Notes: generated from the letters alone by a model not told the origin. Shown: positions 17,409 through 49,548, counted from the stretch's first letter. The stretch is DNA of 64,000 nucleotides from Azolla caroliniana (GCA_043228905.1 JBHGNT010000016.1:7626001-7690000), one strand, 5' to 3'. Numbers and translations are program-made.

Positions 17409-17798
17409 ACTAGAAATGGAAAGAGAGTTTATATTATAAGAGAGCAAGGATTACAAAGAGTAGGTTAAGGGGCTACAAACTTGTGTTGAACCGAATGAGT
17501 TATGATGAATGAATAGACACCTATTTATACTCCTTATGGAGTATTCTAGAATGTTCTAGAATATTTTAGATATTTATGATATTTACATTCTAGAATATTT
17601 TAGATATTTATGATATTTAATATAATCATGGAATATCCTAGAATGTTCTAGAATACTCTAAATATCTTGTAATAACTAATAATACATTATTATAACTATA
17701 CATCATATATGTTATTATAATGGTTAAATGTCTAACATATAGATCAAGACGTCTTGGGATCGAATCCTTGTAAGGCCAAAATGTATGTCTTCATGACA
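17319..17798 (-). repeat. 5' LTR of chromovirus B
   Basis: Matches 11254-11500. TATAAAT at 17529-17523 (minus). Bounded by TSD GTGAC. Confidence 0.88.
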
Positions 17799-19675
17799 GT
17801 GACAGCCCTATAAGCATAAAATGGTGTTACCTTTGTCGATGAGTGGACAAAGTTATTATACGCAAATTCGGCGAAGTGGAGATTATCCGCTCGGTCATCT
17901 TGATGATAGCTTAAAAAGCACCGAAGATACTACTCCAGCGTTTTATTTGTTCGTTCTGGTTAGCCCTCTGTTTGCGGGTTGTAGCAGGAGGAGAGGTTAC
18001 AAGTGACCTTGAGCATTTTAAAGAGGTGCTTCTAGAATTTCGAGACGAACAAGGGTCCATGGTCGCTGATGATACTATCAGGAAGGCCATGATGCCGACA
18101 TACTTCACGCATGACAGTTTCGGCGGTTTCCTCACTAGAGATTTCCTTAGTACATGGCAAAAAGTGGGCCATCTTCGTATATCGATCTACTACTGTTAAG
18201 ATCGCATCGAATCCCTTAGAGACCGGAAGATCTGTGATGAAATCTAGAGCAATGGATTGCCACGGCTTGCTTGGAATTGGTAATGGTTCTAATAAACCAT
18301 ATGGATGATGCCTTGGCATTTTTGCTCTGCAACATGTATCACAAGTCCGAACAAAATCTTCGACAAATTGTCGCATATGGGGCCACCAGAATGATCGTTA
18401 TAGTAAATCTAATGTTTTAGTACTACCAAAGTACCCAGTTGTATATGTGTCATGACAGTTTTGGACTACTTGAAGGAGATAAGAACCATTAGGAACATAC
18501 AAGAGTTTCTTAAAGAATAGTAATCCACCATGAAATTCGAATTGTCAATAGTCTGTACCTGGTCGTTGTGATTGTAAACAAGATGCTTGAGAGGGATCAA
18601 TTTGTGTTAGAATAGCTTGGGTGAAAGCATCTGTCTTCAATTCCTCACGTATGGTATTGATAACATGGGAATCCAAGGGCATTCTGAAGACCTGTGTTGC
18701 TTGCAATCGTGTTGGTCCCAGAATTACTTGCTTTTGGTTATCGAAAGCTAGCTCGCCAGGACGCGGTGCTAGATACGAGCATCGTGAAAATGCATCTGCC
18801 TTCCCTTGTTGCTTCCCTGGACGATATGTAATTTTGAAGTTGAAACAAGTGAGGAATTGGGCCCATCAAGCTTGACGTCGATTTAACACACGAGCATTCT
18901 GAAAGTAGGCGAGGTTTTTGTGATCACTGAATACAGTGACTTGATGAGAAGATCCCTCTAGAAAATGCCTCCATTGCGTAAAAGAGTCCACTATTGCTAA
19001 TAGCTCCTTATCATGAATTTCAGCGACGTCAAAGTTGCGTGAATGGAAAGCCACGGGATGGAGTTTTTCATCATCGCCTTGTTGTGACAGAATGCTACCC
19101 AACACGAAATCTCACGCGTCCACTTCGATGATGAATGGTTTTTCCGGATCAACATGAGCCAGAATAGGAGTTGATGTAAATGCCTTCTTAAGACCCTCAA
19201 AAGTCATGTCTGCTTCTTCAGACCAAACGAACGATTGTCCCTTCCTGGTGAGTTGTGTGAGAGGCGGAACAAGCTTTGAGTAATCCTGTATAAACTTGCG
19301 GTAGAAATTGGGAAAGCCTAAAAAGCATTGCACATCTCACAACGAACGCAGAGTCTACCACTCTACCACCATTTTGACCTTGGCCGGATCCATGGAAATG
19401 CCTTCCGAGGAGATGACATAGCCTAGAAATTCTACTTGGTTGCACTCGAAACTACATTTTTCCAGCTTTGCATAAAGACCATGTTCTCGAAGTCGTTTTA
19501 GTACTAACAGTACATGAGAATCATGCTCTTCTTTGGTCTTCGAATAAACCAGTAGATCATCCAAATAGTTTATCAAACAAACATCCAAGAGATCTCGGAA
19601 TATATCATTTGCCATGTTCTTAGAAGACTGTTGGCGCATTAGTGACGCCGAATGGCATGACCGTATACTCGAAGT
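17799..19675 (-). mobile_element. Chromovirus C, RT-RNase H-integrase pseudogene segment
   Basis: Colinear with 27300-29186 (YLDD, HDKELLAIVDSF, LDFITDLP). Confidence 0.88.
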
Positions 19676-19844
19676 CAATTTTTTGTTCATTCGCTCGGTT
19701 AACACTAAACATTGTGGAGATTGAGCCATTACAGGGCAAGCGTAACCACCACGAGTCTCGCGGCTTACAATCATCCCACGGGTCACGAAACGACCGTTGG
19801 CACCAAAAAGTTTGAATTTCCCACGCAAAGTTCGTCGAAAGAAC

Positions 19845-20055: not shown

Positions 20056-20079
20056 CCTATAAAAGCTTGACAAGAAAAC

Positions 20080-22891: not shown

Positions 22892-22903
22892 CCCCCCCAT
22901 AAA

Positions 22904-26182: not shown

Positions 26183-26316
26183 TGTCAGGAACTCTATTAA
26201 GGCAGAGAAGGAATTAGTACTAAAAGAAGGATTAGTACTATTGTTGGGGAATAGTACTAAGACAGAGAAGGATTAGTACTATGAGAGGTGTCGAACTTTT
26301 GAGAGAAGGAATGAGT

Positions 26317-26364
<48 letters not shown>

Positions 26365-26654
26365 TGATGCGAAAGATATATGTATTATATGAAGGAAGAT
26401 ATACAACAGTAGTTAGAAGGCTTAAGACTGGCGTTGAACCGATTTGGTTCGAACTAATGCCTTGCGCCTCCTTTTATAGTGTCTTCAGGAATACTCCTGA
26501 AGTTTCTAGAATGTTCCAGAGAAATCTGGAATATACATCAATTTCCCAATAAAACCTAAATGAAAATAATATCCTTCAAATTACAATTCATAACCTAATG
26601 GTAAAGTCTCGACCCGTGTAACAAAAGGTTATGGGTTCGAGTCTAGTTATGACA
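26183..26654 (-). repeat. 3' LTR of chromovirus I
   Basis: TGTCA...TGACA termini; direct repeat of 31505-31982. Confidence 0.96.
26591..26644 (+). promoter_or_regulatory. tRNA-like Pol III A/B-box module in the LTR (copies at 31919-31972, 49479-49533, 17713-17767)
   Basis: TAACCTAATGG followed 43 nt later (start to start) by GGTTCGAGTC. Confidence 0.6.
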
Positions 26655-29600
26655 CTATCCCCCCTTTAAAACGACGAGTTCCACGAGTCGTTTTGGATTG
26701 AGGACCCGGTTTCTCGGGATATTGTCGATGGAAGTCTTCTAGAAGAGCACGAGCATTGGTCACATTCTCGATCGGTTCCCAAGTACGCTCGCTGGGACTA
26801 TATCCTAGCCAATCGACTAGATAGTAGAGCTTGTTGCGAACAATCTTGGAATCGAGGATGGCAGCGACCTCATACTCAGGTCCATCTTCGAGCTCGATAG
26901 GAGGTGGTGGTTGTATAGTACGTCCTGGGATAGTGCTCTCGTGATAGGGTTCGAGGAGAGAACTATGAAACACCGGATGTATCCGAAGTTGCGGAGGTAG
27001 CTCGAGACGAAAAGCGACATCATTAATCTTCCCGATAATACGGAAAGGACCTAATCGCCGATAATCCAACTTCTCACATGGGCGAGTAGTCTTGATGTGT
27101 CGTCGTAGCAGCCACACCCGATCTCCAATGTTAAAACTGGATGGAAGTCGATGACGATCTGCGTAGTCCTTGTGTGATTGTTGAGCTTGCTGGAGTTGAG
27201 TAGATAAATCCGCTTGTATCTTGCGTAACCGCTCCAAACGATCCTCCGCGCAAGGATTTGTGGACACTTCTGGGGTTTCAAGGACACACCACCGGGGATG
27301 ATATCCCGTATAAGCGTAGAATGGCGTGACTTTAGTCGATGCGTGGATAGCGTTATTATAGGCAAATTCGGCGAACTGAAGAATATCTGCCCAGTCATTC
27401 TGATGATAGTTGAAAAAGCACCGCAGATACTGCTCCAGTGTTTGATTTGTTCGTTCGGCTTGACCGTCGGTTTGTGGGTGGTAGCCGGAGGAGAGGTTAC
27501 AAGTGACCTTCAGCATTTTAAAAAGGTGCTTCCAGAATTTTGACACAAACTGGGGTCCACGATCGCTGATGATATTATCAGGGAGTCCATGATGCCGACA
27601 TACTTCCCGCATGACAATTTCGGCGGTGTCTTCACTAGATATTTCTTTAGTACATGGTAAGAAATGAGCCATCTTCGTATATCGATCCACCACTGTGAGA
27701 ATCGCACTGAATCCCTTAGAGACTGGAAGATCTGTAATGAAGTCAAGAGCAATGGATTGCCATGGCTTGCTTGGAATTGGTAATGGTTCTAATAAACCAT
27801 ATGGATGATGTCTTGGCATTTTCGCTCTGCAGCATGTATCGCAAGTCCGAACAAAATCTTCGACAAATTGTCGCATACGGGGCCACCAGAATGATCGTTG
27901 TACTAAATCTAATGTTTTAGTACTACCAAAATGTCCTGCTGTATATGTGTCATGGCAATTTTGTACTACTCGAAGGCGGCAAGAACCATTAGGAACATAC
28001 AAAAGTTCTTTAAAGAAGAGTAATCCATCACAGTATTTGAATTGCCGATAATCCGTACCTGGTGATTGTGATTGTGAACATGACGCTCGAGAGGGGTCAA
28101 TTTGTGCTAGTATAGCTTGGGCGAAAGCGTCAGTCTTCAAGTCCTCACGTATAGTATTGGTAATGTCGGAATCCACGGGCATGTCAAAGACCTGTGCTGC
28201 TTGCAGTCGTGCTGGACCCAAGATTACTTGCTTCTGGTTATCGAAAGCTGGCTCACCGGGACGTGGTGTTAGATACGAACGCCGTGATAATGCATCTGCC
28301 TTCCCTTGGTGCTTCCCCGGACGATATGTAATTTTGAAGTCGAAGCGTGTGAGGAAGTGGGCCCACCGAGCTTGACGTCGATTCAGTACACGAGCATCTT
28401 GAAAGTAGGCAAGGTTCTTGTGGTCACTGAATACAGTGACCTGATGAGGAGATCCCTCCAGGAAATGCCTCCATTGCATAAAAGAATCAACTATTGCTAA
28501 TAGCTCTTTATCATGAATTTCGTAGTTGATTTCGGCGGCGTCAAACTTACGGGAGTGGAAAGCCACAGGATGTAGCTTCTCGTCGTTACCCTGTTGTGAT
28601 AGAATGCTCCCTAATGCGAAATCCGATGCGTCAGCTTCGATAATGAATGGTTTTTCCGGATCCACATGACCTAAAATTGGAGCTGATGTAAACGCCTTCT
28701 TAAGACTCTCGAAAGCCATGTCCGTCTCTTTAGACCAAATGAATGATTGTCCCTTCCTGGTGAGCTGTGTGAGAGGCAGCACAATTTTTGAGTAATTTTG
28801 TATGAACTTCCGGTAAAAATTTGCAAAGCCTAGGAAGCATTGCACATCCCGCACCGAACGCGGAGTGTGCCATTCTATCACCGTTTTCACCTTGGCTGGG
28901 TCCATAGATATGCCTTCTGAGGAGATGACATAGCCGAGAAATTCCACTTGGTTGCACCTGAAACTACATTTCTCTAACTTTGCATACAGACCATGTTCTC
29001 GAAGTCGTTTTAGTACTAATAGTACATGAGAATCATGTTCTTCTTGGGTCTTTGAATAAACCAGTAGATCATCCAAATAGATGATCAAAAAATCATCCAA
29101 GAGATCTCGAAATATATCATTCGCCATGTGCTGGAAGACTGCCGGCGCATTAGTGAGTCCGAACGGCATGATCGTATACTCGAAGTGCCCATATCTGGTG
29201 CGAAACGCGGTCTTCCATTCATCTCCTGGTCGGATCCGTACGAGGTTATAGGCTCCTCGTAAGTCGATCTTCGTGAAGAACCTGGCACCGTTGATCCGTT
29301 CTAAAAGACTTGAGATAAGGGGAAGAGCATACCTATTTCTTACTGTGACCTTATTCAAGCCACGGTAATCTACAACGAGTCGAAGCGAGCCATCTTTTTT
29401 CTTGACGAAGAAAATGGGTGCACCGGCTGGAGATTTCGAATGCCGAATGAAACCGTTCTCCAAATTCTCCTCTATATAGGCTCGGAGGACTTCTAGCTCG
29501 GTTGGTGACAAATTGTAGATCGGCCCCCATGGCGGCTCTTTTCCCAGTTGTAAGTCGATGGCGCAATCGTACGGCCGATGATGAGGAAGTGTGTTGGCTT

Positions 29601-30234
29601 GTACTTTATCGAACACATCAGCATACTGACGATACTTCTCGGGAAGTTGAACGGTGGACTCCTCTTTGGTGGTGCTGGAGGGTTGTACTGATATTGCGAA
29701 GAGAAACATTTCCTCCTTGCGCCCTTCCTCACGCAACTGATGTAGCGAAATGGTTGCAACCTTCTGGGTAGATCCTTGGGTTTGTCGCAACCGGATTTCC
29801 CTTGTCCTCCAATCTATGTCTGGGTTATGTAACTCGAACCATGGTAATCCTAAAACTATGGGATGTTCTGGAATACTAATAATATTAAATGATACTACAC
29901 ATGTTAAGTTATCTAGGACAATATTAATGGGTTCCGACTCTTCTATGATATTACCAGAAGCAATGGGACGACCATCAATGACTACTACTGAGGCTGGACA
30001 TGGGAGCTTTCTAAGAGATATCTGATGAGCTCGGGCAAAATTCCTATCCATGAAGCAAGAATTAGCTCCGGAATCTAGAAGGGCTAAGGTATGTACTGGA
30101 GGGGTACTTTTAGTACTAACTGCTACTTGGGCTACGAACACATCACTAACTTGCTTAGAGGGAATGGAACCACTAATGGGCTGCACAGATCTAGGGCTGT
30201 CCAACCAAACGGCTCCTATTTTGGCTGGACTTAG
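26647..30234 (-). CDS. pol: Pol: protease, RT, RNase H, integrase, chromodomain; probably entered by -1 frameshift
   Basis: LLDSGA, IYLDD, EADASD, integrase HHCC and DDE motifs, GPF, and chromodomain YEVAAILD...YLVDWLGY...TWEP. No ATG at the ORF start. Confidence 0.93.
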   Translation of the reverse strand, partial: LSPAKIGAVWLDSPRSVQPISGSIPSKQVSDVFVAQVAVSTKSTPPVHTLALLDSGANSCFMDRNFARAHQISLRKLPCPASVVVIDGRPIASGNIIEESEPINIVLDNLTCVVSFNIISIPEHPIVLGLPWFELHNPDIDWRTREIRLRQTQGSTQKVATISLHQLREEGRKEEMFLFAISVQPSSTTKEESTVQLPEKYRQYADVFDKVQANTLPHHRPYDCAIDLQLGKEPPWGPIYNLSPTELEVLRAYIEENLENGFIRHSKSPAGAPIFFVKKKDGSLRLVVDYRGLNKVTVRNRYALPLISSLLERINGARFFTKIDLRGAYNLVRIRPGDEWKTAFRTRYGHFEYTIMPFGLTNAPAVFQHMANDIFRDLLDDFLIIYLDDLLVYSKTQEEHDSHVLLVLKRLREHGLYAKLEKCSFRCNQVEFLGYVISSEGISMDPAKVKTVIEWHTPRSVRDVQCFLGFANFYRKFIQNYSKIVLPLTQLTRKGQSFIWSKETDMAFESLKKAFTSAPILGHVDPEKPFIIEADASDFALGSILSQQGNDEKLHPVAFHSRKFDAAEINYEIHDKELLAIVDSFMQWRHFLEGSPHQVTVFSDHKNLAYFQDARVLNRRQARWAHFLTRFDFKITYRPGKHQGKADALSRRSYLTPRPGEPAFDNQKQVILGPARLQAAQVFDMPVDSDITNTIREDLKTDAFAQAILAQIDPSRASCSQSQSPGTDYRQFKYCDGLLFFKELLYVPNGSCRLRVVQNCHDTYTAGHFGSTKTLDLVQRSFWWPRMRQFVEDFVRTCDTCCRAKMPRHHPYGLLEPLPIPSKPWQSIALDFITDLPVSKGFSAILTVVDRYTKMAHFLPCTKEISSEDTAEIVMREVCRHHGLPDNIISDRGPQFVSKFWKHLFKMLKVTCNLSSGYHPQTDGQAERTNQTLEQYLRCFFNYHQNDWADILQFAEFAYNNAIHASTKVTPFYAYTGYHPRWCVLETPEVSTNPCAEDRLERLRKIQADLSTQLQQAQQSHKDYADRHRLPSSFNIGDRVWLLRRHIKTTRPCEKLDYRRLGPFRIIGKINDVAFRLELPPQLRIHPVFHSSLLEPYHESTIPGRTIQPPPPIELEDGPEYEVAAILDSKIVRNKLYYLVDWLGYSPSERTWEPIENVTNARALLEDFHRQYPEKPGPQSKTTRGTRRFKGGIVS

Positions 30235-31400: not shown

Positions 31401-31490
31401 GGGATGAAGGAAAAGGGAAATAAGAGACTAGTAGGAAAGGAGGGAGACAGAAGGAAGAGGGAGAGAAAAGACCAGACAGGCACCGAGGAA

Positions 31491-31502
31491 AAATCGGTTC
31501 AA
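31491..31502 (-). other. Non-tRNA PBS complementary to the predicted transcript 5' end (self-priming)
   Basis: Sense TTGAACCGATTT lies 2 nt after the LTR and is the exact complement of sense AAATCGGTTCAA at 31773-31762, which starts 33 nt after TATAAAA. Confidence 0.85.
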
Positions 31503-31504
31503 AC

Positions 31505-31638
31505 TGTCAGGAACTCTATTAAGGCAGAGAAGGAATTAGTACTAAAAGAAGGATTAGTACTATTGTTGGGGAATAGTACTAAGACAGAGAAGGATTAGTA
31601 CTATGAGAGGTGTCGAACTTTTGAGAGAAGGAATGAGT

Positions 31639-31692
<54 letters not shown>

Positions 31693-33700: not shown

Positions 33701-33705
33701 CTACT

Positions 33706-36208: not shown

Positions 36209-36212
36209 CAGT

Positions 36213-36230
36213 TGATGAACCCGACGTGAA
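36213..36230 (+). other. PBS for tRNA-Trp with one G>A change
   Basis: TGATGAACCCGACGTGAA versus TGGTGAACCCGACGTGAA at 43679, the complement of the plant cytosolic tRNA-Trp 3' end as I recall it (TTCACGTCGGGTTCACCA). Confidence 0.8.
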
Positions 36231-36246
36231 GACGGGTGGCAAGGAG

Positions 36247-38289
36247 ATGGAAAATCAACCGGAGGCTAGCAACATGATGATGATGTTCGAGCGCATGCTA
36301 CAAGAACAACGCATGATGTCGGAGATAGCGGCATCAGTGGAGTGACTCGTGCAACGAAACGGGCAATTCAACGGGAAAGACGTGTCGCGGTATCTTCGGG
36401 ACTACAAGGCGGAGATGCTACGGTGCGGAATATCGGAAGGACTGCAAGTGACGTCCTTCAACCGGGTGGCGACCGACGGGCTTCAAGCAAGCATCCATGG
36501 GCTACGACAGGAAAATCCGACATGGGAGGCGTTTGAAGTAGAGCTAAAGAGGACGTTCGCCATCGAGGATTCCTCCAAGGCGACGCGAAGGGAATTCGAA
36601 GATTGGGTGGAGACGCCGGACAAGGGATTGAAGGTCGTTGATGTGTTTTCGGCATTCGAAATCCGGTTCGGGAGGTTGTCCGCGAGAGATCAAGCTATCC
36701 TCGTACCGGACAAGGTGATCATGTTCTTGCGAGCCGTGGACGTCCGGGACCGGAAAGATCTCGGAGTGCTCTTGGAGGACACGACCACGGAGAGTGGCCT
36801 CACCGAAACATGGGAAAGCGTGCAGGATATCGTCGCACGATACACGAAGAGGGGGCAATGGCTTGCCAACGAGGAAAAGAGGGTTTCGGAACCGATTCCA
36901 AAACCGAGAACCGGATTGGAAGACCATCCACCGAGGGCTCGGGAGACTACAACCGAGAAGGGGATTGATGCATCTACGGTGGAGCAACTATTGAAGGAGA
37001 TGGAGAATCTGAAGATCGCGATAGTGAAGAAGTCGGATGATCGCCCCACAAACTCCAAGTATACGGACCGACGGTGCATATGGTGCGATAGCGCCGAACA
37101 CGATCGGAGGGATTGCGACAAGCATAAGGAGGCGCTACGGCGAGATCTCATCTACTACGAGGGAAACCGGATTCATTCGATGGACTCTCGGAAGCCACTC
37201 CGACCGAACTTCCGGAAAGGCGGCATGAAGAAGGTGCTTGAGGAGGAATTGGCAGCAAGAAGCAACTATGCGACAACCGCGGGAATATGTGTCGGGGAGT
37301 CATCGAGAGCAAAGACGTCTTTTTGGTCAGAAGTTCTAGAAAACACCGAGAAAACCGACTCCAACGAGATCCGAAGCACCGCGGAAGGCGTTCGGGAAGC
37401 TACGGGATGGGAGTGCCCTGTCGACAAGAATAGCGTATACGCCCTATGTCAATTGCATAAGGTGTATGTGGACGAGAAACGACGACGCACGGAGGATGCG
37501 GCCAGGCCATCAAAGATACCGGAAAGCTGGAACTTCGGAGGTAAGGGAAAAGAAAAGGTGACTCCGGCATTCAAGCTTGCCTCGGACATAGAACAACAAA
37601 CCGACTTGAAAAGAGTGTTCGAGGAAAGAATCTTGGATAGCCGGGTAGTTTTCTCGCTTCGGGAGCTACTCGGAATAGCAAAGAAGGAGTTCCACGATCT
37701 TCTCGTGGATCTCGTGAAGCGAAAAAGACAAAGTACGGAGGAAAATGCTCCAAGGGTGAATGCGAACACCGTTTTAATGAACGACGTCGAAGTGGAGGAC
37801 GAAATTCCGAACTCCCACTATACAAGGCCACATTGGGCACGCGCGACTACGGAGACTCCGGTCCGAATCGGCAACATCAAAGAACCCGTGCTAGCATTGA
37901 TTGATCACGGATCGGAGATCAACTTGATGTCCAAGGAGTTCTACCGGAAGGGGAAGTGGCCTATTAACACCAACCATGGATGGAAGATTCGGGCGACCAC
38001 CAAAGCAACGGAAGATCTATTTGCGGCTTGTCCGGATGTGACGGTGAAGATCGGGGATGTCGAGATCGACCAAAATTTCTTCGTACAAGATGAGATTTCA
38101 CATTCCGTCATCCTCGGCCAACCCTTTATCACGGCATCACGGATGGAGACGAAGGTGCTTGATAGCGGTGCAGCTTTTGCGCGAATTCGGAGCCAAAACG
38201 GTGGGAAATCCATCCAATTCCTAACGGTGCTGGCAAATCACGAAAGGAACAAGAGGGAACTCTTGTCCCAAGTGAGAATGGATTTTTAA
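36247..38289 (+). pseudogene. gag-protease ORF of J, with a premature TGA at 36343
   Basis: ATG at 36247 is in frame with ORF 36349; CIWCDSAEHDRRDC knuckle; LIDHGSEIN protease. Confidence 0.88.
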
Positions 38290-41200
38290 AGAGGACTGTT
38301 GCGGAGTGGGGAAGTGATAGTCCGAGAAGCCCTGATACCCCACACAGGAAGAAAACTCTCGGAGCAAAACATGTACGAATCGGTCCGGATGGGGCATCTA
38401 CGTACACGACCGTAACCGGAGGATTGAAGAAAGGATACTGACAAGTGGAGGATAAGTTGCGGTCGGCATCAATAATAAAAGAAGATGAAGAAATCGTGGG
38501 GATAGTCGAAGAAGTGTTCTATGGGAGCATGCTACAATGACTTGAAGAGCTTGCGGAAGATAAAAGCCAAGGGAACCGGGTAGTCCCGGTGGAATCGGTC
38601 GAGATGTACGAGATCATTGCGAAAATGGAGTCGGATACGCTCCGCAAAGAAGAAGCAATGGTAAGTATGAAATACAAGACCGTGGAGAAGAAGGTGAAAC
38701 CGGCCGCGGGACCGCTACCTGCCGATAGCGAACAAAAGAGGAAAGAAGTCTCGGGAGATCCGACACTTCGGAAGTCCGTGGATATCGGACATGCCTTCAC
38801 GGATGAGACCCGGAAGAAACTTCGGATCGGTGGAGGTGGGTTCCTATTACAAAAAGAAGAAGAACGGTTTCGCGAGATGTTGGAGCAACACGGCAAAGCG
38901 TTTGCATTTACATCAAGGGAGATAGGGTGCGTCGATCCGAGAATGGTGGAGCCGATGGTGATCTTCACGATTGACCATGTACCGTGGAACCTGAAGCCGA
39001 TTCCGGTGCCGCGAGCGCATATTCCGAAAGTCATTGACTTGCTCAAGGAGAAGGTGGCGATGGGGATTCTAGAGCCATCAACTGCTCCGTACTCAAATCG
39101 ATGGTTTACGGTTCCGAAGAAGAATGGGTCACTCCGATTCATCCAAGACTTGCAACCGGTGAATAAGGTCACGATCCGGAACTCGGGAGTCGGTCCGATA
39201 GTGGACGAATTTGCGGAAGCTTTTGCCGGTCGTGCGATATACTCCATCGGAGACCTATACTCGGGGTATGACCAATTCCAACTAGCCGTGGAGAGCCGAG
39301 ACATCACAACCATGCGAACACCGATAGGATTAGTCCGAATGTGCACACTACCACAAGGAGCGACAAACTCAGTTGCTCATATGATGAACGCGATGAACAA
39401 GGTGCTTCGAGACTGCATTCCGGAGATAACGATGCCGTTCCTCGATGACATTCCGATGAAAGGATGCATGGTAGAAGAAAAAGATGAGACTATGGATGAT
39501 CGGGGATGCCGAAAGTTCGTGGTCGACCATATTCATGATTGCGAGAAAGTGTTGCGAAAGCTAGAAGATGTGCACCTAACACTTTCCGGGGAGAAATCGG
39601 CATTCGGGCAAGAAGAAATATTGGTGGTCGGACATCTATGTGGGCCCTACGGCCGAAGACCGTCACCAACAAAGATCGATGTGATTCAAGCTATGGAGGA
39701 AGTATGCGAGTCAACATCCGAAGTCCGAAGGTTTCTCGGTGCATGTGCATTCTATCACATCTGGATTCCAAACTATGCACATATAGCAGACCCGCTCTAC
39801 CACTTGTTGCGGAAAGGTAAGAAATTCGAATGGAAACCGGAACACACCAAAGCCATGAAGAAATTGAAGAAGACACTTCGGAGGGCGGAAGCACTTAAGA
39901 AGCCGAGCTACGACCGACCGATCATAGTAACGGTTGATATAAGTCCAACCGGTATCGGGTGGGTCATCAATCAAGCCGACTCGGATGGTTCGCGGTATCC
40001 GATCCGATTCGGAGCAAAGGTTCTCAACGAAAGGCAACGTGGTTATGCACAAGTCAAAAGAGAATTGTGGGGAGTCGTGTCGGCGATAAAATCGGATCCA
40101 GATTATTTGATCGGAGCCAAAGTGGTGATCGAGACGGATTGTCTTCCGATACTCGGGATGATGCGGTGTTGTACGATACCGGATGTAGCTATGGTAAGGT
40201 GGGTTGCATATGTCAAGTCGCTTAATCCGGAGGTTCGACACATCTCGGGGAAGGACAACGCGGTAGCGAATATGTTATCAAGGGCTCGGTTCGGAGATGA
40301 CATAACCGAATCGGATAATGAAGAAGTTTCCGAAGACTACTTCGCGTCGGAGCACATATGCCGAGTGAACGTAATCCGAGAATTCCGGGAAGAAGAATAC
40401 GAGGGAGAAAGCTTGATGATCGGAAAGATGTTACAAGAGGTCGAGGATTCAACAAACGATAAAGGAAGAAGTGCCGAGATCCGAAGGAAGAAGAGGCAAG
40501 TCCAAAAGTTCTTCTTGGAAAACGGATTAATATGGAGGGCGCCGAAAAGACCGGATGGTATACCACTTCGAGTAGTCGGGACCAAAGAGCAACGAAACCG
40601 GATAATGTCTGAGTTTCACGAATCCGATTGGGCTGGACACCGAAGAACATGGGCAACATTTGTGAAGATCAAGCAAAAATATTGGTGGAAGAAAATGTAC
40701 AAAGATGTTGCGGAGTTCACGGAAAGCTGCGAGAAATGTCAAGTCTACTCCGGGGTTCGACATCGAGATGAGTTACATCCGACATTCTCACCAACAATCA
40801 ACTTCAAGTGGATGGTCGACATAGTGGCCATGCCGACCGGGATCAGACAAAAGAAATACTTGGTATTAGCTCGGGTAGAAGGTCGAGCGCTTCAGAGGAA
40901 AACGTGTTCCGCGGTATGCCAATTTCTTTTGGAGGAAGTATTTTGCAGGTACGGGTGTGTAGGACAAGTGATTGTGGACCGGGGAGAACTCGACTCGGAC
41001 AAAGCTAGGGGATTCTTCGCCAAACACGGAGTTCGGTTATCGCTGACAACGGCATACAATCTGGAGGCCAACGGGAAAATCGAACGAGGACATAGTCCAA
41101 TCATGAAAGCACTTGCAAAGGCATGCGATGGAAAGGTGAAGGACTGGCCGCAGATGCTTCCGTATGCACTATGGGCGGATCGGACGACGCATAGCTCAGT

Positions 41201-41903
41201 AACCGGTTACATGCCGGCAGAACTCATGACCGGACAAGCACCGGTAATGCCGACGGAAACCGCGATCACAACATGGACAGTGCTATCGTGGAAGGAAGAG
41301 ATGAGCCGGGAAGAACTACTAGCGGTCCGGATACGACAACTAGAGGGAAGACCGGCAGACATAGCGGAAGCAATACGTCGACAACAAGAAGCACGGTTCC
41401 GGAACAAAAGTCGGTTCGACACAAAGCACCGACTACGACCGAGGAGGATTGAAGAAGGAGATTGGGTGATCGTCTATGACAGTAGTTTGGACCATCAACA
41501 TACAACGATGCGGAAATTCGCGAAAAGGTGGTTCGGGCCATACGAGGTTCGGAAAGTCTTCGACAACGGAACGTACCGACTGTCCGAGTTGGATGGAACA
41601 ATACTACGAGTGCCTATAGCTGGGAAGCGGGTGAAGATTTTCAAGAAGCGGACCGACGACAAACCCTATGTGATCCAAGCCAAGGCCGACAACGAGGAGC
41701 AATCGGACGAAGACCACGATGATGCGGGAAGCGAAGAAAGTGAATTACAACTCATAGTCAACATAAGGGGAGAATCGGAGGAAGCTTTGGGTGAAGACGG
41801 ATATGAGGAATCGAGAACTTCGGCACATACCGGAAGATGTGCGGGTTCGGAGGGGGCGAGTGTCGTAGTGTATTCCACACACTACGTGAAAACCATAAAA
41901 TAA
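38286..41903 (+). pseudogene. pol of J (RT, RNase H, integrase) in the -1 frame; two TGA stops near the start, then 1104 open codons
   Basis: DLYSGYDQ, LPQG, FLDD; FHESDWAGH...CEKC; WFGPY; no chromodomain. Stops at 38439 and 38538. Confidence 0.88.
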
Positions 41904-42564
41904 TATATCCGATTTTAGATACATATAAATAAATAAATAATATATCAAAACATTTATCATGTGCATGGGGAAGGACTCAAACCTTGCACCTCCACGTAGA
42001 TAAACCCCAACTTTACCATTGTATTAACTTATCTTTAGTGTTATATATATAGATTTAATACGTATAAGACCTTTATTTACACATACCTTTATTAAAAGAT
42101 AAAAATCATGTATTCTTTAGGGTGTGAATATTTTATTTACACGTGACATTAAAAGTGACTCATGCACATCTAGCGTGCATGAGCCCTATACTTAGGAAAT
42201 GACAAAGCATCACATGCACATTTAGTGTGCATGGACACTTTAGGTGAAAAAGCATGAAGCCATGCTTAGCCTCTTCCATCTTTATATAAGGAGGAGAGAA
42301 ATATGTATAAGGTTGTTGATTAATATACAAGGATTGATCAATCTAATATATTCGTGGGATTCACGAATTTTGCCATCTAAATTACTCGTATAATCTAAAT
42401 ATTGTTTTAAATACACTAAACTCGTGGGATTCACGAGGTTGCTATCTTACTTCTCTTTCTACTATTCATAACTAGCCTTAAGTTGTATTCCTCTTCCTCC
42501 TAGTCCAAAACCTTGGTAGTTCCCACCCGACTCACGCAACGATCTGGAGCCGAAAGGCACGACA
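41861..42564 (+). repeat. 3' LTR of element J
   Basis: Follows PPT GGAGGGGGCGAG. Confidence 0.95.
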
Positions 42565-43053
42565 ACGTACTCCCCGCCACCTACAAACGGGATTTTGAAA
42601 CCATAATTGACACGCGTTTTTTCCCCACTTACATAAGCTTTAGTCGAAACCCCCGTTCTCCCTTTGCCGGCCACAACACCTGCACCTGGCTCACCGGCCC
42701 CAAGAAAGATTTCTTCACAACAACTGACCAACTGCAGGAAATCCGGCTACCATCATTGAACATCCACCGTCTTTGCCATCATCTCCGCCGCCACCCGCCC
42801 CCCGAAGAACCCCCCTAATGAATCCTACTCGCCCCTGACGCCCGAAGCTCCCCTCCCATAGTGCACCCAAGAGTGTGCACTCATTGGGTTGGGGGGGATG
42901 TTAAGCGCTTGGATAATAACACAACCAGTCACGAATAAGAGCGCTGTCGTAGTGTATTTTGTACACTACGTGAAAAACGTATATAGTATTAGATTCAATA
43001 AAAAATGAAGAAATAGAAGAAAATAGCAAAATAAATGGAACATGCATAGGGCA

Positions 43054-43107
43054 AGATTCGAACCTTGCACCTCCATGTTAATAATGTAATGTCTTACCAT
43101 TACACTA
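43054..43107 (-). promoter_or_regulatory. tRNA-like Pol III A/B-box module in the LTR (copies at 45845-45898, 35617-35670, 41973-42026)
   Basis: Minus strand TAGTGTAATGG, then GGTTCGAATC 43 nt later inside hairpin GCAAG..CTTGC, followed by TTTT runs. Confidence 0.65.
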
Positions 43108-43678
43108 GCATTTCATTAGTGTTAAAGCATAGATGTCCCACATAGAAAGGTAAATTCACGCTAGGATAAACATTAGAAAAACGCATAACAAAAGAAAAAG
43201 CTACACATACACATCTAGCGTGCATGATAAAAAACGCACAAGTTAGAAAAAAGCATGATCACTTTAGATAAAGCATATAGTCTATCTATAGGAAAAGCAT
43301 GGGGTCTATAGTTAGAGAAAAAGCATGGATTACTAAAGACTTCCTCATCACTACATAAGGATGGGGAGCACAATGTAATTGTGTGTGAAAAATATTTGGA
43401 AACTAGATATGTTTCTAAAAAACACCAATTAATAAACTATACTCGTGGGATTCACGAGAATTCTATATCATTCTCTTTCAACCGAAGTTTATATTCTTAT
43501 ATTCATATTGATTAATCTAATACAATACACTCGTGGGATTCACGAGTTTGCTATAACTCTTTCTTACAACATATTTATATTCTTATTAGCCTTAAAACTC
43601 TCCTCTTCCTAGTCCAAAACCCCAGCGGTTCCCACCCGACTCACGCAAACGATCCGGAGCCGAAAGGCACGACACAGT

Positions 43679-43696
43679 TGGTGAACCCGACGTGAA
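43679..43696 (+). other. 18-nt PBS for tRNA-Trp
   Basis: TGGTGAACCCGACGTGAA, 4 nt after the LTR. Confidence 0.85.
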
Positions 43697-43712
43697 GACG
43701 GGTGGCAAGGAG

Positions 43713-45734
43713 ATGGAGAATCAACAAGAGGCGATGAACATGATGATGATAATGTTTGAGCGGATGCAACAAGAACAACGTGCGATGTCGGAGATGAAGG
43801 CGGCAGTAGAGCGGCTTCTGCGACGAAACGGGGAATTCAACGGTAAGGGTGTGTCACGCTACCTACGTGAATATAAGGCGGAGATGATGCAATATCGGAT
43901 ACCGGAAGGATTGCAAGTGATATCCTTTAGTCGGGTGGCCTCGGACGAACTACAAGAGAGAATCCACAAGATACAACAACAAAACTCGACATGGGAGTCC
44001 TTTGAAGAAGCTTTACGGGAGGCATATGACTATGAGAGATGGACGGGACGAGATCGACGAGAATTCGACGAATGGGTGGCGTCGGAGAAGACTCACCGAA
44101 GTGCAACGCAAGCGTTCCTAGAGTTCGAGCATCGTTTTGCTCGACTCTCGGAGCGGGAACGAAGATTGGTGGGAGAAGATAAAGTCTTAATGTTCGTAAG
44201 ATCGATCGATCGGAAAGAAAGGATGGACATTGGGATCGAACTCGAAGATGATGACGGTGCGAACGGTCTTACTGAGGATTGGGCCAAAGTCGAAAGGGTA
44301 TGCCGAAGACATGATGAAAGGAAGCTGAGAATCTCGTCAACAACGACATGGCCGATGAAGGATGGTCGATTGAGGAAAAACGATGAAGCCAATATGAAGG
44401 CCGAAATACAACATGATGGTACCACGGGAGAAAGAGTGGAACAAGACACCCACTCGTCTTGTGAAAGAACGATGGCGAAGGATAAGGCCGATAATTCAAG
44501 TGTAGAAGGAAATTTCGGGATACAAGTGCCCGAGACATCGGGTCAAAAAGGGGTAAGCATAATAGATGTTTGCATAATTGATGCAGATAAAGAGTGTGAA
44601 GCGGATGTGATTAAGGAGGTAGCCACAAAAGACGAAATCGAATCGGAGGTGGCTATAGACGAATCAATGGCGGATTGCCATATCGAGACTTCCCCACCAC
44701 TGATTCCAGAGACTCCGGCGGTTGCGATCGAAAGGCAACGTGAGACCGAAGAGACGGAAGGTGGCGGAGAGAAAACGAATGTCGAAGCCGACGAATACGA
44801 TGAAGAGATAGCCGAGAAGAATGCTAAGGGTGAAACTACGAAAGAAGGTAATATCGAGGATTCATGCCAACAATATCTAGAGACTTCGGCGATTGTGTCC
44901 GAGAACCAACGTGAGACCGGAGAGACGGGAGATGGCGGCGAGGAAGGTAAAGTCGGAAGTCGGTTCGGATGGAAAATGATCAATCCGAAATTCCAATCTA
45001 AAAGAAAGTGCGACAATGCGGAGGTCGGGTCTACGACGGGAGAAGCGCGTAATACAGAGCACGCTCTACGGCGAATAAAGAAACGCGTGTTATGGGGAAT
45101 AAAGAAGCACGCGCTACGGCGAGAAAAGAAGCATGCATTACAACCACACGAGGACCGAACAACGAGCACATATCGGAGGACCTACGTGGCGAACAACGGA
45201 AAGAAGTGCCGAAAGTCGAACCGGACAAGGCAGGTGAAAACGAAGAAAAGAAAGCAAATCCGGAAGAAAAGAAAAGAAAAGAAACCGACCCGAAAGAGCA
45301 CTGAATCGGTAAAAACCGACCAACCGAGTCCGGATCGACCGAATACAAATCGGAAAGGAAGCCGAACTAAACGAAAGACGATCCGACGAGACCGAATCGG
45401 AAGTAAGCTAATCCGACTAAACCGAAAATCCGAAAAGAAGTCGAGATTGATGAAGAAAAGAAAGAGGGCAAGAAAAGATACTACCGCGGATGACAAGGAC
45501 CAAGCGGGCCATGCAAAAAGCGAACGAAGACTATGGTGGATCGGATGTCGACAATGGTTCGGGTGGAAAGAATGGATGTGCTCCAAATGGAGAGACAGAG
45601 TCAACATAACAAGAGAAGTCGAGGGTACTACGAGCCGGCAACGAAACCAATCGGGTAGAGACCAGACGGAGGAGACTAACAAACACCAACAACTTCGGCA
45701 CATACCGGAGGATGTGCGGGTTTGGAGGGGGTGA
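43713..45734 (+). CDS. Gag-derived protein (673 aa from the first ATG) with an acidic then Lys/Arg-rich tail
   Basis: The first ~205 aa align with J gag (RNGEFNGKGVSRYLREYKAEM...GLTEDW). No knuckle, protease or pol. Confidence 0.75.
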   Translation: MENQQEAMNMMMIMFERMQQEQRAMSEMKAAVERLLRRNGEFNGKGVSRYLREYKAEMMQYRIPEGLQVISFSRVASDELQERIHKIQQQNSTWESFEEALREAYDYERWTGRDRREFDEWVASEKTHRSATQAFLEFEHRFARLSERERRLVGEDKVLMFVRSIDRKERMDIGIELEDDDGANGLTEDWAKVERVCRRHDERKLRISSTTTWPMKDGRLRKNDEANMKAEIQHDGTTGERVEQDTHSSCERTMAKDKADNSSVEGNFGIQVPETSGQKGVSIIDVCIIDADKECEADVIKEVATKDEIESEVAIDESMADCHIETSPPLIPETPAVAIERQRETEETEGGGEKTNVEADEYDEEIAEKNAKGETTKEGNIEDSCQQYLETSAIVSENQRETGETGDGGEEGKVGSRFGWKMINPKFQSKRKCDNAEVGSTTGEARNTEHALRRIKKRVLWGIKKHALRREKKHALQPHEDRTTSTYRRTYVANNGKKCRKSNRTRQVKTKKRKQIRKKRKEKKPTRKSTESVKTDQPSPDRPNTNRKGSRTKRKTIRRDRIGSKLIRLNRKSEKKSRLMKKRKRARKDTTADDKDQAGHAKSERRLWWIGCRQWFGWKEWMCSKWRDRVNITREVEGTTSRQRNQSGRDQTEETNKHQQLRHIPEDVRVWRG

Positions 45735-46938
45735 GTGTCGTAGTGTATTTTGTACACTACGTGAAAAACGTATATAGTATTAGATTCAATAAAAAATGAA
45801 GAAATAGAAGAAAATAGCAAAATAAATGGAACATGCATAGGGCAAGATTCGAACCTTGCACCTCCATGTTAATAATGTAATGTCTTACCATTACACTAGC
45901 ATTTCATTAGTGTTAAAGCATAGATGTCCCACATAGAAAGGTAAATTCACGCTAGGATAAACATTAGAAAAACGCATAACAAAAGAAAAAGCTACACATA
46001 CACATCTAGCGTGCATGATAAAAAACGCACAAGTTAGAAAAAAGCATGATCACTTTAGATAAAGCATATAGTCTATCTATAGGAAAAGCATGGGGTCTAT
46101 AGTTAGAGAAAAAGCATGGATTACTAAAGACTTCCTCATCACTACATAAGGATGGGGAGCACAATGTAATTGTGTGTGAAAAATATTTGGAAACTAGATA
46201 TGTTTCTAAAAAACACCAATTAATAAACTATACTCGTGGGATTCACGAGAATTCTATATCATTCTCTTTCAACCGAAGTTTATATTCTTATATTCATATT
46301 GATTAATCTAATACAATACACTCGTGGGATTCACGAGTTTGCTATAACTCTTTCTTACAACATATTTATATTCTTATTAGCCTTAAAACTCTCCTCTTCC
46401 TAGTCCAAAACCCCAGCGGTTCCCACCCGACTCACGCAAACGATCCGGAGCCGAAAGGCACGACAGCGCATCAACAAGGACGTAGTACAAAGAGGAAACG
46501 GCAAGAGGAAAAGAACGCAAAGAGACGTTCAAGTGGGAAAGGCCCATACCCTAAACATGAAAGCTATATAAACCACATAGTAGTGGCTTTGTGGGGGCTC
46601 TCCCATTTGTAATGATCTCCTATTGATTAGAGCTAGAGCTTCCTCTCCTCCTTCTTGTAACCTTTTAACATAAGAGAGATTAGTGAGGTGTTTAGTTAGA
46701 GAACACTAATCTCTCTCCTTATTGGTGTCTTAATCTATTAACCTATTGTCTATGAGAGAGAGCTTGAGAGAGTGAGAGAGATATCGTGCTCAATCATTTA
46801 CTAATCATTAAGTGAGTGTGAGGCTTGGAGGTATCCGACAACCATCTCCGCCCGATTCGCCATCAAGAGGGTATACGCCAGTTTGAATCCCGCCACGACA
46901 TCGAGGAGCTTACTCCATCGATGCATAGATCCTTAACA

Positions 46939-49548
46939 ATCTTTGTGAAGAACCTTGCACCATTGATCCATTCTAAAAGACTTGAGATAAGGGGAAATGC
47001 ATAGCTATTCTTGATGGTGACCTTATTCAAGCCACAGTAATCTATGACGAGACGAAGTGATCCATCCTTTTTCTTGACGATGAAAATGGGTGCGCCGGCT
47101 GGAGATTTCGAATGTCAAATGAAACCATTTGCCAAATTCTCCTCTATATAGGCTCGAAGGACTTCTAGCTCGGTTGGTGACAAATTGTAGATCGGTCCCC
47201 CCGGTGGCTCTTTTCCCGGTTGTAAATCGATGGGGCAATCATACGGTCAATGGTGAGGAAGCGTATTGGCTTGTACTTTATCGAACACATCGGCATAATG
47301 ACGATACTTCTCTAGAAGTTGAACGGTGGACTCCTCTTTAGTGGTGTTGGAGGGTTTTACTAATACTGCGAAGAGAAACATTTCTTCCTTGCGTCCTTCC
47401 TCACGCAACTGATGTAGCGAAATGGTTGCAATCTTATGAGTAAATCTTTGGGTTTGTCGATACTGGATTTCTCTTGTTCTCCAATCTATGTCTGGGTTAT
47501 GTAATTTGAACCATGGTAATCCCAAAACAATGGGATGTTCTGGGATACTAATTATATTAAAGGATACTACACATGCTAAATTATCTAGAACGATATTAAC
47601 GGGCTCTGACTCTTCTATGATATTTTCGGAAGCAATGGGACGACCATCAATGACTACTACAGAGGCTGGACACGAGAGTTTTCTTAGGGATATCTGATGA
47701 GCTTGGGCAAAATTCCTATCCATGAAGCAAGAATTAGCTCTGGAATCTAGGAGTGTTGAGACATGTACTGGAGAGGTACTTTTAGTATTAACGGTTACTT
47801 GGGCTAAGAACACATTGCTAACTTGCTTAGAGGGAATGGATAGATCTAGGGTTGTCCAACCAAAGGCTCCTATTTTGATTGGACTTAGTCGTTTAACTCT
47901 TCTTCTAATTGACTAAGGACATCAAATTTGTTCAATAGATTTGGGCTATTAGGACTATTGGGACTATCAAATATTCCTACTAAAATAGACTCGGATTTAG
48001 TAGAATTAGAACTAGCAACTATTTGGTTCACCTATCTTCTTGGCCTATGGGGACAGTTCACTTCAATATGCCCTAGTCCACTGCAATAAAGACATAGTCG
48101 ATTTGCTCGGCATCACTGCTTTTCTTCTTCCGATAATGGTCCACGACGACATGTAGTGTCAATTTCCATCGGAGTTGGAGTATTCACTAGAGACACATTA
48201 TATGACTCCCTTGGAAAAGGTTTTGCTAACACTGAGGTGTAGGTGGGCTCTGATCTTGCCCTTTGCATCTAGAACTGACATTCTGAACATCGTTCGAAAA
48301 GACGGTTGTCGCATCTCAGCACGCGACTGATTGCTTCTATCAATGACTTTGGTTCTTCAGGGAAGGTCAAGAGTAAATCCTTGACATCGTTACGTAGACC
48401 ATTACGAAATTGCTCCATAAGTGCTTGGTCATCCTAGGGGATATCGAAGGCAAGTAGGCAGAAATCTGCACCGTATGCGGAGGCTGGACGATCACCTTGA
48501 CGTAATCGTCGGATTTTGTTGATTGTTGTCCTTATGTTGTCAGTATCTCCAAAACAGGCTTTAAACTCACTTAAAAACTCTTCAAAATTGTTTAGTAAAG
48601 GAGATTCCTTTTCTAACAACGGAGCGAACCATGCCAAAGCTGAGCCACTTAACAACGTGCCTACTAAACCCACTCGTGATGCATCATTGGGATATCAGGA
48701 AGGATGCATTTGAATGACTAATCGTACCTAATTAAGGAATTCTCTAAATTGTGATTGTGTTCCATCGAATTTCATGGGAAGGTCGGTCTTGGGTTCTTTA
48801 TGAACCCCTTGCGTACTGGGTCCTTGTTGTTCCATTGTTGCTATGGTTGCTTCGAGCTGTTGCACACGTAACGCAAGTTCCCCGTGTTGTTGTTGCGTCT
48901 GCTGCTTCTCTAAGGAGATTTGTTGAAGCTCCCCCAACAGTCGTTGATTTTCATGTTCCAAGGCGAGAAACTTCTCTTTCAAGCATTGCAACTCTGAAAA
49001 AACTGATTGATATTCTTGAGCGCTAACAGTGGCTATAGTATGAGAGAAAAAAGGAAGAAGAGATTAGTATGAAGGGAGGGAGAAGTAAGAAGATAAAGGA
49101 AGAGAAGGAAGGAGACAAAATCGGTTCAAACTGTCAGGAGCAGTACTAAGACAGAGAAGGAATTAGTACTAAAAGATGAGGATTAGTACTAAGGGAGGTG
49201 TAGAACTCTCAAGAGAAGGAAAGAGTGAGTGTGTGAGAGAGAGAGAGAGAATGATGATAACAAAAGATATATATTCTGTTAAGAGAATATACAATAGTAG
49301 ATAGGAGACTTAAGACTGGCATTGAACCGATTTGGTTCGAAATAATGCCGTGTGCCTCCTTTTATAGTGTTCTCAAGAGTACTCCTGAAGTTTCTAGAAT
49401 GTTCCAAAGAAATCTGAAATATACATCAATTTTTTATAGTAAAACTTAAATGAAAATAATATATTTTGTATTACAACATAGTCTAATGGTCAAGAGCTCG
49501 ACTCATGTAACATAAAGTCATGGGTTCGAGTCTTGCCATATCATGACA
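46939..49548 (-). mobile_element. Chromovirus C, 5' half (RT start, protease, gag pseudogene, 5' LTR 49132-49548)
   Basis: Colinear with 29268-31982; the LTR is homologous to that of element I. Confidence 0.9.

What the first reader, a model, noticed from the sequence alone, without database searches (positions are those of the whole stretch)
17713..49533. tRNA-like Pol III A/B-box module, antisense in U3, shared by two different Ty3/gypsy lineages
Seen: eight LTR copies from five distinct LTR sequences carry an A-box-like 11-mer ending AATGG, followed 43-44 nt later by a B box. Chromoviruses (elements on minus, module on plus): TATTATAATGG/GGATCGAATCC at 17713/17757, TAACCTAATGG/GGTTCGAGTC at 26591/26634 and 31919/31962, TAGTCTAATGG/GGTTCGAGTC at 49479/49523. 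Trp-primed elements (elements on plus, module on minus): TAATACAATGG/GGTTCGAGTC at 35670/35627 (GGTTTGAGTCC in the 3' LTR) and TAGTGTAATGG/GGTTCGAATC at 43107/43064 and 45898/45855, with TTTT runs just downstream. The sequence between the boxes differs among families, but spacing, position near the LTR 5' edge and antisense outward orientation are constant. A weaker match lies at ~5209-5259. Established: ~44 nt is the T8-to-G52 spacing of intronless tRNA genes; B boxes bind TFIIIC; tRNA genes act as chromatin barriers in yeasts; Cassandra TRIMs carry a 5S-derived Pol III promoter in their LTRs. Inference: these elements keep a TFIIIC site as an insulator against surrounding heterochromatin, or to make a short antisense Pol III RNA. 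I do not know of this being described for these lineages but cannot search.
Basis: partly seen in the sequence, partly recalled or inferred. Interest (0 to 1): 0.82.

Follow-up and report, generated by a model that had tools for sequence, protein, structure and literature searches.

The report
Backwards tRNA promoter in moss retrotransposons
Two unrelated groups of jumping genes, likely from a moss, carry a worn, backwards-facing tRNA-gene promoter at the outer edge of their end-repeats, where only the promoter-like letters stay conserved across families, so it likely recruits the host's tRNA-gene transcription factor, perhaps to keep the element's own promoter open in silenced DNA.

Summary
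Observation confirmed and extended. Eight LTR copies of five families carry an A-box/B-box pair 43-44 nt apart, antisense in U3 (shuffles: mean 0.7). The hosts are Tcn1-type chromoviruses and Phygy-type non-chromoviruses. Seven metagenome Tcn1 loci (six families) carry it at the same place; 35 more distant loci with an LTR start in view do not. Over 11 families three blocks are conserved (D-loop 0.82, variable loop 0.81, T-loop 0.81 identity) against spacer 0.37 and flanks 0.27-0.35; spacing is fixed; acceptor and anticodon stems are gone. The B-box bases that TFIIIC reads, G53, T55 and C56, are 11 of 11. So it is a tRNA-derived, SINE-head-like type 2 promoter under selection, not a tRNA and not a passenger. 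Function is untested; a TFIIIC/TFIIIB site shielding the U3 promoter is my best guess (0.45). The T-run terminator is conserved only in Phygy; the 5209 match is noise. Closest published: Helenus TRIMs (sense, non-autonomous) and foamy-virus LTR Pol III units. This scan noted tRNA-like boxes in LTRs of other (fungal) genomes before, not this pattern in mosses.

The parts
17713..17766 (+). Module of element A 5' LTR (tRNA positions T8-C61; A box 17713, variable-loop block 17749-17753, B box 17757)
11254..17798 (-). Element A, degenerate Tcn1-type chromovirus, TSD GTCAC; 5' LTR 17318-17798; 3' LTR remnant 11254-11502 lacks the U3 start and the module
26591..26643 (+). Module of element B 3' LTR; would read out across the PPT into the pol 3' end, first T4 at B-box +57
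31919..31971 (+). Module of element B 5' LTR; B box ends 11 nt from the LTR edge
26183..31982 (-). Element B, intact Tcn1-type chromovirus: LTRs 26183-26654 and 31505-31982 (1 substitution, 6 gap columns), TSD CTAGG, gag 30231-31427, pol with chromodomain 26647-30258, self-priming site after the 5' LTR complementary to R, Pol II TATA 31807
49479..49532 (+). Module of element C 5' LTR (LTR 49132-49548; Tcn1-type, 3' part missing)
35618..35670 (-). Module of element D 5' LTR; T4 at B-box +33
41974..42026 (-). Module of element D 3' LTR; carries C56T in the B box
35505..42564 (+). Element D, Phygy-type non-chromovirus: LTRs 35505-36208 and 41861-42564 (14 substitutions), 4-bp TSD ACGT, Trp-type PBS with one change, gag-PR 36346-38289, pol 38541-41903 without chromodomain, TATA 35926
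43055..43107 (-). Module of element E 5' LTR; aligns to Rfam tRNA positions 8-63 at 13.4 bits (gathering 29)
45846..45898 (-). Module of element E 3' LTR
42945..46465 (+). Element E, non-autonomous Phygy-type element, identical 730-nt LTRs, TSD GCGC, 18-nt Trp-type PBS at 43679, ORF with gag N-terminus only

Best explanation
The module is a tRNA-derived sequence kept backwards at the outer end of U3 in Tcn1-type and Phygy-type retrotransposons, and it likely works as DNA, by binding the host factor TFIIIC. Shown: it is colinear with tRNA positions 8-61, replicates as part of the LTR, and only its D-loop, variable-loop and T-loop letters and their spacing are conserved. Inferred: TFIIIC binds the B box, the retained A box lets it load TFIIIB on the AT-rich U3 DNA between the module and the Pol II TATA box (112-256 nt away), and this occupied, outward-facing complex would act as a barrier or nucleosome-poor anchor that keeps the element's Pol II promoter usable inside the nested, silenced retrotransposon clusters where these elements land. 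Any antisense Pol III RNA would be a by-product of variable length. The element itself would still be transcribed by Pol II (TATA, self-priming site or Trp PBS, PPT are all in place). The sharing between two lineages is either two captures of a tRNA/SINE head or one LTR-level transfer in the common host; the spacers are too diverged to tell.
For: Block conservation over 11 families: positions 14-21 0.82, 44-48 0.81, 53-61 0.81 mean pairwise identity versus spacer 0.37, upstream 0.35, downstream 0.27-0.35; same pattern Tcn1-versus-Phygy (0.87, 0.73, 0.86 versus 0.35). D versus E alone: 20 of 21 block positions identical versus 10 of 22 in the spacer (Fisher p 0.0006). Spacing 43-44 in 11 of 11 while B-box-to-edge distance varies 21 to about 120 nt. 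Bases read by human TFIIIC (G53, T55, C56, G57, C61, C62 by my renumbering of PMC11811891): 11, 11, 11, 9, 10 and 3 of 11. tRNA-level invariants outside the boxes are lost: U33 6 of 11, R37 3 of 11, no CCA, Levitt pair 15-48 mostly broken; acceptor and anticodon stems no better than slid registers (29/77 versus 26-36; 22/55 versus 17-22). The same paper says tauB encloses the B box and its upstream region, which would cover 44-48. Among B-family contigs of run X1 and X17, variants at >=10% fall at tRNA positions 10-12, 23-25, 28 and 34 and none at 13-22 or 44-61 (depth is lower there). Six copia LTRs and another gypsy LTR in the window lack the module (max 11.1 bits). TFIIIC as insulator: PMC11811891 introduction passage.
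Against: No binding, chromatin or small-RNA data. C62, a base TFIIIC contacts, is kept in only 3 of 11; G52 in 7 of 11; L056 has a poor B box (T54C, G57A, A58C) and L018 lacks C61; the 3' LTR of D has C56T, a change at a base whose mutation cut yeast TFIIIC binding 370-fold (C56G). TFIIIC tolerates A-B distances of 30-67 bp, so it does not by itself demand the fixed spacing, nor clearly the 44-48 block. Sister Tcn1 families lack the module (L020 and L022, L025, L026, L027, L071), so it is dispensable. The 11 families are related, not independent; the boxes (not the 44-48 block) were used to anchor the stack. In organism D contigs T20 is changed in about 90% of depth (35659). In yeast, tRNA genes repress neighbouring Pol II promoters (recalled), the opposite of the proposed benefit. 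No upstream CAA or fixed TATA is shared.
Confidence: 0.45

Rival explanations
1. The selected product is a short antisense Pol III RNA: from the 3' LTR it would cover U3 start, PPT and the pol 3' end and regulate the genomic RNA or feed small RNAs; in Phygy it would be a defined RNA of about 90 nt.
For: Both A and B boxes are kept, which transcription needs. T4 at B-box +33 in both D and E despite 68% LTR identity. Precedent: Pol III units with A/B boxes in foamy-virus LTRs give miRNAs (PMC3993851 passages).
Against: Terminator position is not shared among Tcn1 families (+11, +22, +29, +57, +80, none within 300 nt). Spacer and 3' flank are at background identity, and only 3 of 11 modules fold better than shuffles at z<-2.
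Confidence: 0.2
2. The constraint acts on single-stranded nucleic acid during replication: a T-loop-capped hairpin at the U3 end of the minus-strand DNA or genomic RNA (positions 46-51 pairing with the LTR terminus or a nearby copy), or pairing of the sense RNA with the loops of host tRNAs to help strand transfer or plus-strand priming.
For: The three conserved blocks are exactly the tRNA loops, with fixed spacing. Positions 45-52 pair with the downstream flank better than shuffles (Fisher p 2.6e-5); in Tcn1 the block is an inverted repeat of the LTR's first bases, and L019 has both sides changed in step. A tRNA-complementary U3 motif aids strand transfer in HIV-1 (recalled; not found).
Against: The control with a spacer segment also passes (p 0.0065); the register varies; the compensation is one case. 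D and T stems are no better than registers slid by one (24/44 versus 25 and 22; 36/55 versus 37 and 30). Tcn1 elements self-prime and have no primer tRNA; the Phygy modules do not match the Trp primer's 3' arm (3 and 4 of 11 at positions 62-72).
Confidence: 0.2
3. TFIIIC bound near the cDNA end serves integration: it tethers the pre-integration complex to Pol III sites or makes the LTR a landing pad for Pol III-targeting elements.
For: The B box lies 21-59 nt from the U3 end in Tcn1. Earlier unchecked scan notes report insertions upstream of LTR-borne boxes in a fungal genome.
Against: None of the 8 module-bearing LTRs in the window has an insertion upstream of its A box; no tRNA gene lies in the window; B has an aromatic-cage-type chromodomain as its own targeting device.
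Confidence: 0.07
4. It is a neutral relic of one or more tRNA/SINE insertions carried along in U3.
For: Sister families lack it; some copies have damaged boxes; different source tRNAs would share loops without selection.
Against: Stems, anticodon-loop invariants and spacer are lost while loop letters, including a CpG in 9 of 11, are kept; D versus E contrast p 0.0006; kept across integrases only 58-79% identical to B.
Confidence: 0.08

Closest known systems
Helenus / TRIMp3 (Kojima 2024, PMC10886601; parts 1-4 of 6, figure legends and supplement passages read)
   Same: tRNA-derived sequence in both LTRs, conservation centred on boxes A and B, not a functional tRNA, Pol III promoter inferred but not tested; one plant family (Selaginella).
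   Different: Helenus are gene-less TRIMs under about 1.3 kb with the tRNA-like part in sense orientation in the consensus records seen (Helenus-1_SMo and three animal families), thought to transcribe the element. Here carriers are 5.8-7 kb protein-coding elements with a Pol II TATA, the module is antisense and points out of the LTR. The paper says many Repbase LTRs resemble part of a tRNA but analyses only TRIMs, and expects autonomous partners to use Pol II.
Cassandra TRIM (5S-derived Pol III promoter; as described in PMC10886601 and PMC12786077 passages)
   Same: Pol III promoter captured into a plant LTR.
   Different: 5S type 1 promoter, sense, drives the genomic RNA of a non-autonomous element.
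Foamy-virus LTR Pol III miRNA units and the BLV miRNA cluster (PMC3993851 passages; PMC4992882 search listing only)
   Same: Autonomous, Pol II-transcribed retroelements that keep A/B-box Pol III units in or near the LTR.
   Different: They make hairpin pri-miRNAs with terminators; here the unit is tRNA-colinear, has no conserved hairpin product or (in Tcn1) terminator.
tRNA-gene and ETC barriers bound by TFIIIC (PMC11811891 passages; yeast details recalled)
   Same: B-box bases read by TFIIIC are conserved; position between a silenced flank and a promoter.
   Different: Host loci in yeasts and animals; none shown in a plant retrotransposon in the searches run.
Tcn1 and Phygy lineages of REXdb (Neumann et al. 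2019, PMC6317226; passages and one supplement row)
   Same: A, B, C: chromodomain, self-priming, 5-bp TSD. D, E: no chromodomain, 4-bp NCGN TSD, tRNA-Trp PBS.
   Different: No LTR-internal tRNA-like module is mentioned in the passages read.

Membership tests
Helenus / TRIMp3 | tRNA-derived sequence with boxes A and B in both LTRs | tested here: met
Helenus / TRIMp3 | short non-coding TRIM (under about 1.3 kb) | tested here: not met
   B 5.8 kb and D 7.06 kb with gag-pol; E 3.5 kb
Helenus / TRIMp3 | promoter oriented to transcribe the element (sense) | tested here: not met
   antisense in all 8 window copies and 7 loci; 0 sense hits among 41 loci; sense in the Helenus records seen
functional tRNA gene | cloverleaf with four stems, ARAGORN or Rfam gathering score | tested here: not met
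   ARAGORN 0 in window and 0 in 16 loci; RF00005 13.4 bits for E and 15.8 for L019 versus 29, no match for C; stems at background
copy-specific SINE insertion | own TSD and A-rich tail, present in one LTR only | tested here: not met
   no flanking repeat above chance and no A run in 11 of 11; present in both LTRs of B, D, E
type 2 Pol III promoter / TFIIIC site | A box and B box consensus at tRNA spacing | tested here: met
   C62 mostly lost
type 2 Pol III promoter / TFIIIC site | TFIIIC/TFIIIB occupancy or Pol III transcript | not testable with these tools
   only poly(A) raw-read runs were offered
type 2 Pol III promoter / TFIIIC site | oligo-T terminator shortly downstream | tested here: inconclusive
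   T4 at +33 in D and E; variable or absent in Tcn1
Tcn1 chromovirus | chromodomain, self-priming instead of tRNA PBS, Tf1/sushi-type pol | tested here: met
   Pfam Chromo and SH3_Tf2-1; 12-nt complement between post-LTR site and R; no REXdb reference sequence was available for a tree
Phygy non-chromovirus | 4-bp NCGN TSD, tRNA-Trp PBS, no chromodomain | tested here: met
   TSD ACGT and GCGC; table row; named homologues from the liverwort Riccia; D is 7.06 kb, under the published range 7656-9968; the Trp identity of the PBS is recalled, not matched to a tRNA set
chromatin barrier / insulator | blocks spread of silencing in a reporter | not testable with these tools
   needs an experiment

The most novel reading that the evidence does not exclude
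Two unrelated lineages of autonomous, Pol II-transcribed bryophyte retrotransposons have each recruited a tRNA-type Pol III promoter, facing outward at the U3 edge, as a portable TFIIIC boundary that lets them stay active inside heterochromatin: a self-carried tRNA-gene insulator, and the first handle on TFIIIC barrier activity in plants.
Probability: 0.3. Interest if true: 0.82.

Novelty: new variant of a known kind. Interest (0 to 1): 0.62.

Why it matters
Pol III promoters in LTRs are described as the engine of tiny non-autonomous elements. Here the same device sits backwards in full-length elements that do not need it for their own RNA, is under box-specific selection, and recurs in two lineages in one host group. 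If it binds TFIIIC it would show transposons borrowing the tRNA-gene boundary trick, scatter many TFIIIC sites through bryophyte heterochromatin, and give a clean test system (single-base B-box mutants in moss LTR reporters) for whether TFIIIC barriers exist in plants.

Tried and rejected
No whole genome was held, so genome-wide copy alignments could not be made. Phygy relatives with an LTR could not be fetched: viral scans gave none and the two genome-contig loci (L006, L007) end before the LTR; Phygy evidence rests on D, E and a truncated variant table (40 of 124 rows shown). No RNA holder listed. Poly(A) reads laid on the LTRs were few (37, 6 and 9), mostly in the orientation expected of sense LTR transcripts; such libraries cannot show a short Pol III RNA, so this is no evidence either way. 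Rfam on the whole window found no tRNA. The 5209 match, and three extra matrix hits at 16.9-18.4 bits (L017, L079, L085), are within the range of shuffled maxima and were dropped. A conserved cloverleaf, a conserved left hairpin (Fisher p 0.10) and a copy of the Trp primer were tested and not supported. The Fisher value 7/7 versus 0/35 uses a post hoc identity cut and is not relied on. The tree is the quick method; the careful search was not finished, and 5 of 97 rows (L006, L007, L015, L056 and one window fragment) were left out for matches under 150 aa. Two recalled papers (HIV-1 U3 tRNA-like motif; tRNA-related sequences in Chlamydomonas Gypsy elements) could not be opened or found; the second may be a closer precedent than anything I read.


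Full report
Setting. The window is a nest of LTR retrotransposons ending in a FAE1/KCS gene. No whole genome was held. A bryophyte host is inferred from the lineages present: Tcn1 and Phygy are moss and club-moss groups in Neumann et al. (PMC6317226, passages), and the named homologues of D pol are from the liverwort Riccia.

Observation. With recalled consensus boxes, at most 2 mismatches each and spacing 42-45, the window yields exactly these 8; 60 shuffles give mean 0.73, maximum 3. ARAGORN finds no tRNA; Rfam aligns the E module to tRNA positions 8-63 with one gap at 13.4 bits and L019 at 15.8 bits, below the gathering score of 29, and gives no tRNA match for C. The 5209 match scores at background.

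Carriers. A, B and C are minus-strand chromoviruses. B is intact: TSD CTAGG, LTRs differing by 1 substitution and 6 gap columns, chromodomain, and a site after the 5' LTR complementary to R instead of a tRNA PBS, as published for Tcn1. D and E are plus-strand non-chromoviruses with 4-bp TSDs ACGT and GCGC and a Trp-type PBS, matching the Phygy row (4 bp NCGN 100%, Trp 81%). E is non-autonomous with identical LTRs. In all, the module lies in U3, antisense, pointing to the LTR's outer edge; the Pol II TATA is 112-256 nt behind the A box. The 3' LTR of A has lost its U3 start and the module. Six copia LTRs and one further gypsy LTR lack it.

Relatives. An integrase-chromodomain alignment fetched 79 metagenome loci. 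A matrix trained on the five window families only was run on the DNA after each match: of 41 loci with a PPT-plus-TG call and at least 90 nt beyond it, 6 score 20.4-30.2 bits antisense (L016, L017, L018, L019, L021, L059), the other 35 at most 10.6, none in sense; L056, with 86 nt in view, scores 21.1. The PPT call is a crude pattern. These seven are 58-79% identical to B; L016 and L017 are one family. Thirteen IMG/VR loci, mostly 37-43% identical, show no pair at their LTR starts where these are in view. In a quick tree of 92 rows the 8 module rows need 3 changes (0 of 500 shuffles as low); seven of them form a clade at SH-aLRT 97 with L034, whose LTR is off the contig; L059 sits in the sister clade beside module-less L020 and seven further loci. 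One gain with losses, or a gain plus a transfer, both fit. The module is therefore a clade feature of some Tcn1 families, not of all.

What is conserved. Stacking 11 families on tRNA numbering gives mean pairwise identity 0.82 (14-21), 0.81 (44-48), 0.81 (53-61), against 0.37 (22-43), 0.35 (upstream), 0.35 and 0.27 (downstream). The 44-48 block was not used to find modules; no 5-column window outside the boxes exceeds 0.46 (129 windows). A14, G18, G19, T20, A44, G46, T47, G53, T55 and C56 are 11 of 11; U33 is 6, R37 3, C62 3 of 11. D versus E, independent of Tcn1, shows 20 of 21 block positions identical against 10 of 22 in the spacer. Contigs laid on the B LTR show variants of 10% or more at positions 10-12, 23-25, 28 and 34 and none at 13-22 or 44-61, with lower depth near the edge. 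Acceptor and anticodon stems are at background; D and T stems are no better than registers slid by one. There is no TSD, A tail or CCA. This is the profile of a SINE head: promoter letters kept, tRNA fold dropped.

Mechanism. Human TFIIIC reads G53, T55, C56, G57 and the partners of C61 and C62 (my renumbering from the paper's C69=C56) and encloses the region upstream of the B box (PMC11811891, passages); five of these six are kept in 9-11 of 11 families. Retention of the A box suggests TFIIIB loading, which would fall on the AT-rich U3 between module and TATA. Because the terminator is fixed only in Phygy (+33) and varies or is missing in Tcn1, I favour a DNA-level role over a defined RNA: an outward-facing occupied site that would shield the Pol II promoter from the silenced flank. 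That last step is inference by analogy with yeast and animal TFIIIC barriers. Against it: C62 loss, damaged boxes in L056, L018 and the D 3' LTR, module-less sister families, and the recalled repression of Pol II neighbours by yeast tRNA genes. The fixed spacing and the 44-48 block are not fully explained by TFIIIC, which tolerates 30-67 bp; they keep a single-strand model alive. In Tcn1, positions 46-51 are an inverted repeat of the LTR's first bases, with both sides changed in L019; the duplex test gives p 2.6e-5 but a spacer control gives 0.0065, so this is a lead only. A role in capturing the primer tRNA is unlikely: Tcn1 self-primes and the Phygy modules do not match the primer's 3' arm.

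Known versus new. Kojima 2024 (PMC10886601; parts 1-4 of 6, legends, supplement passages) describes Helenus TRIMs with tRNA-derived LTRs, sense in the records seen, and notes that not a few Repbase LTRs resemble part of a tRNA without analysing the longer ones. Foamy viruses keep Pol III miRNA units in the LTR (PMC3993851, passages). Ten searches found no description of an antisense tRNA-type promoter in Tcn1 or Phygy LTRs; the library lacks most subscription papers, Repbase entry notes were not seen, and a recalled Chlamydomonas Gypsy case could not be opened. Earlier notes of this scan (unchecked) report tRNA boxes in fungal chromovirus LTRs and backwards tRNA relics judged passengers; none matched this DNA or this module in this genome. 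Verdict: real, under selection, a new variant of LTR-borne small-RNA promoters; function open. Interest 0.62.

Noticed in passing
window 31954-31982 and 49515-49548; L019 4040-4080: Positions 46-51 of the Tcn1 module are an inverted repeat of the first bases of the LTR; in L019 both sides differ from the usual form in step.
   Followed up: partly
window 26655-26695; L018 and L019 just before the PPT: A small hairpin directly upstream of the PPT, overlapping the last pol codons, is shared by B, L018 and L019 and is followed by T4 on the antisense strand in B.
   Followed up: no
window 31775-31790 and 26447-26462: A palindromic B-box-like octamer sits next to the self-priming target in the B LTR; it is altered in C and absent in A.
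   Followed up: no
window 42945-46465: Non-autonomous Phygy-type element with identical LTRs and a 712-codon open frame of which only the gag N-terminus (47% to D gag) is recognisable; inserted into the 3' LTR of an older gypsy element.
   Followed up: partly
window 36209-36230: The PBS of D has a G-to-A change relative to E, in an element with open gag and pol frames.
   Followed up: no
window 11254-11510: The 3' LTR of A has lost its first roughly 230 nt together with the chromodomain end and PPT, yet the TSD is intact.
   Followed up: partly
window 35995-36090, 43440-43550: Phygy LTRs repeat a palindromic motif twice in R/U5 (repeat family D20).
   Followed up: no
window 61596-63368: Intronless-looking FAE1/KCS (ketoacyl-CoA synthase) reading frame at the edge of the retrotransposon nest, preceded by TG-rich microsatellites near 60170-60820.
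   Followed up: no
L006, L007: Phygy-like pol fragments (56-58% to D) lie in contigs of two prokaryote genome records, probably plant contamination.
   Followed up: no
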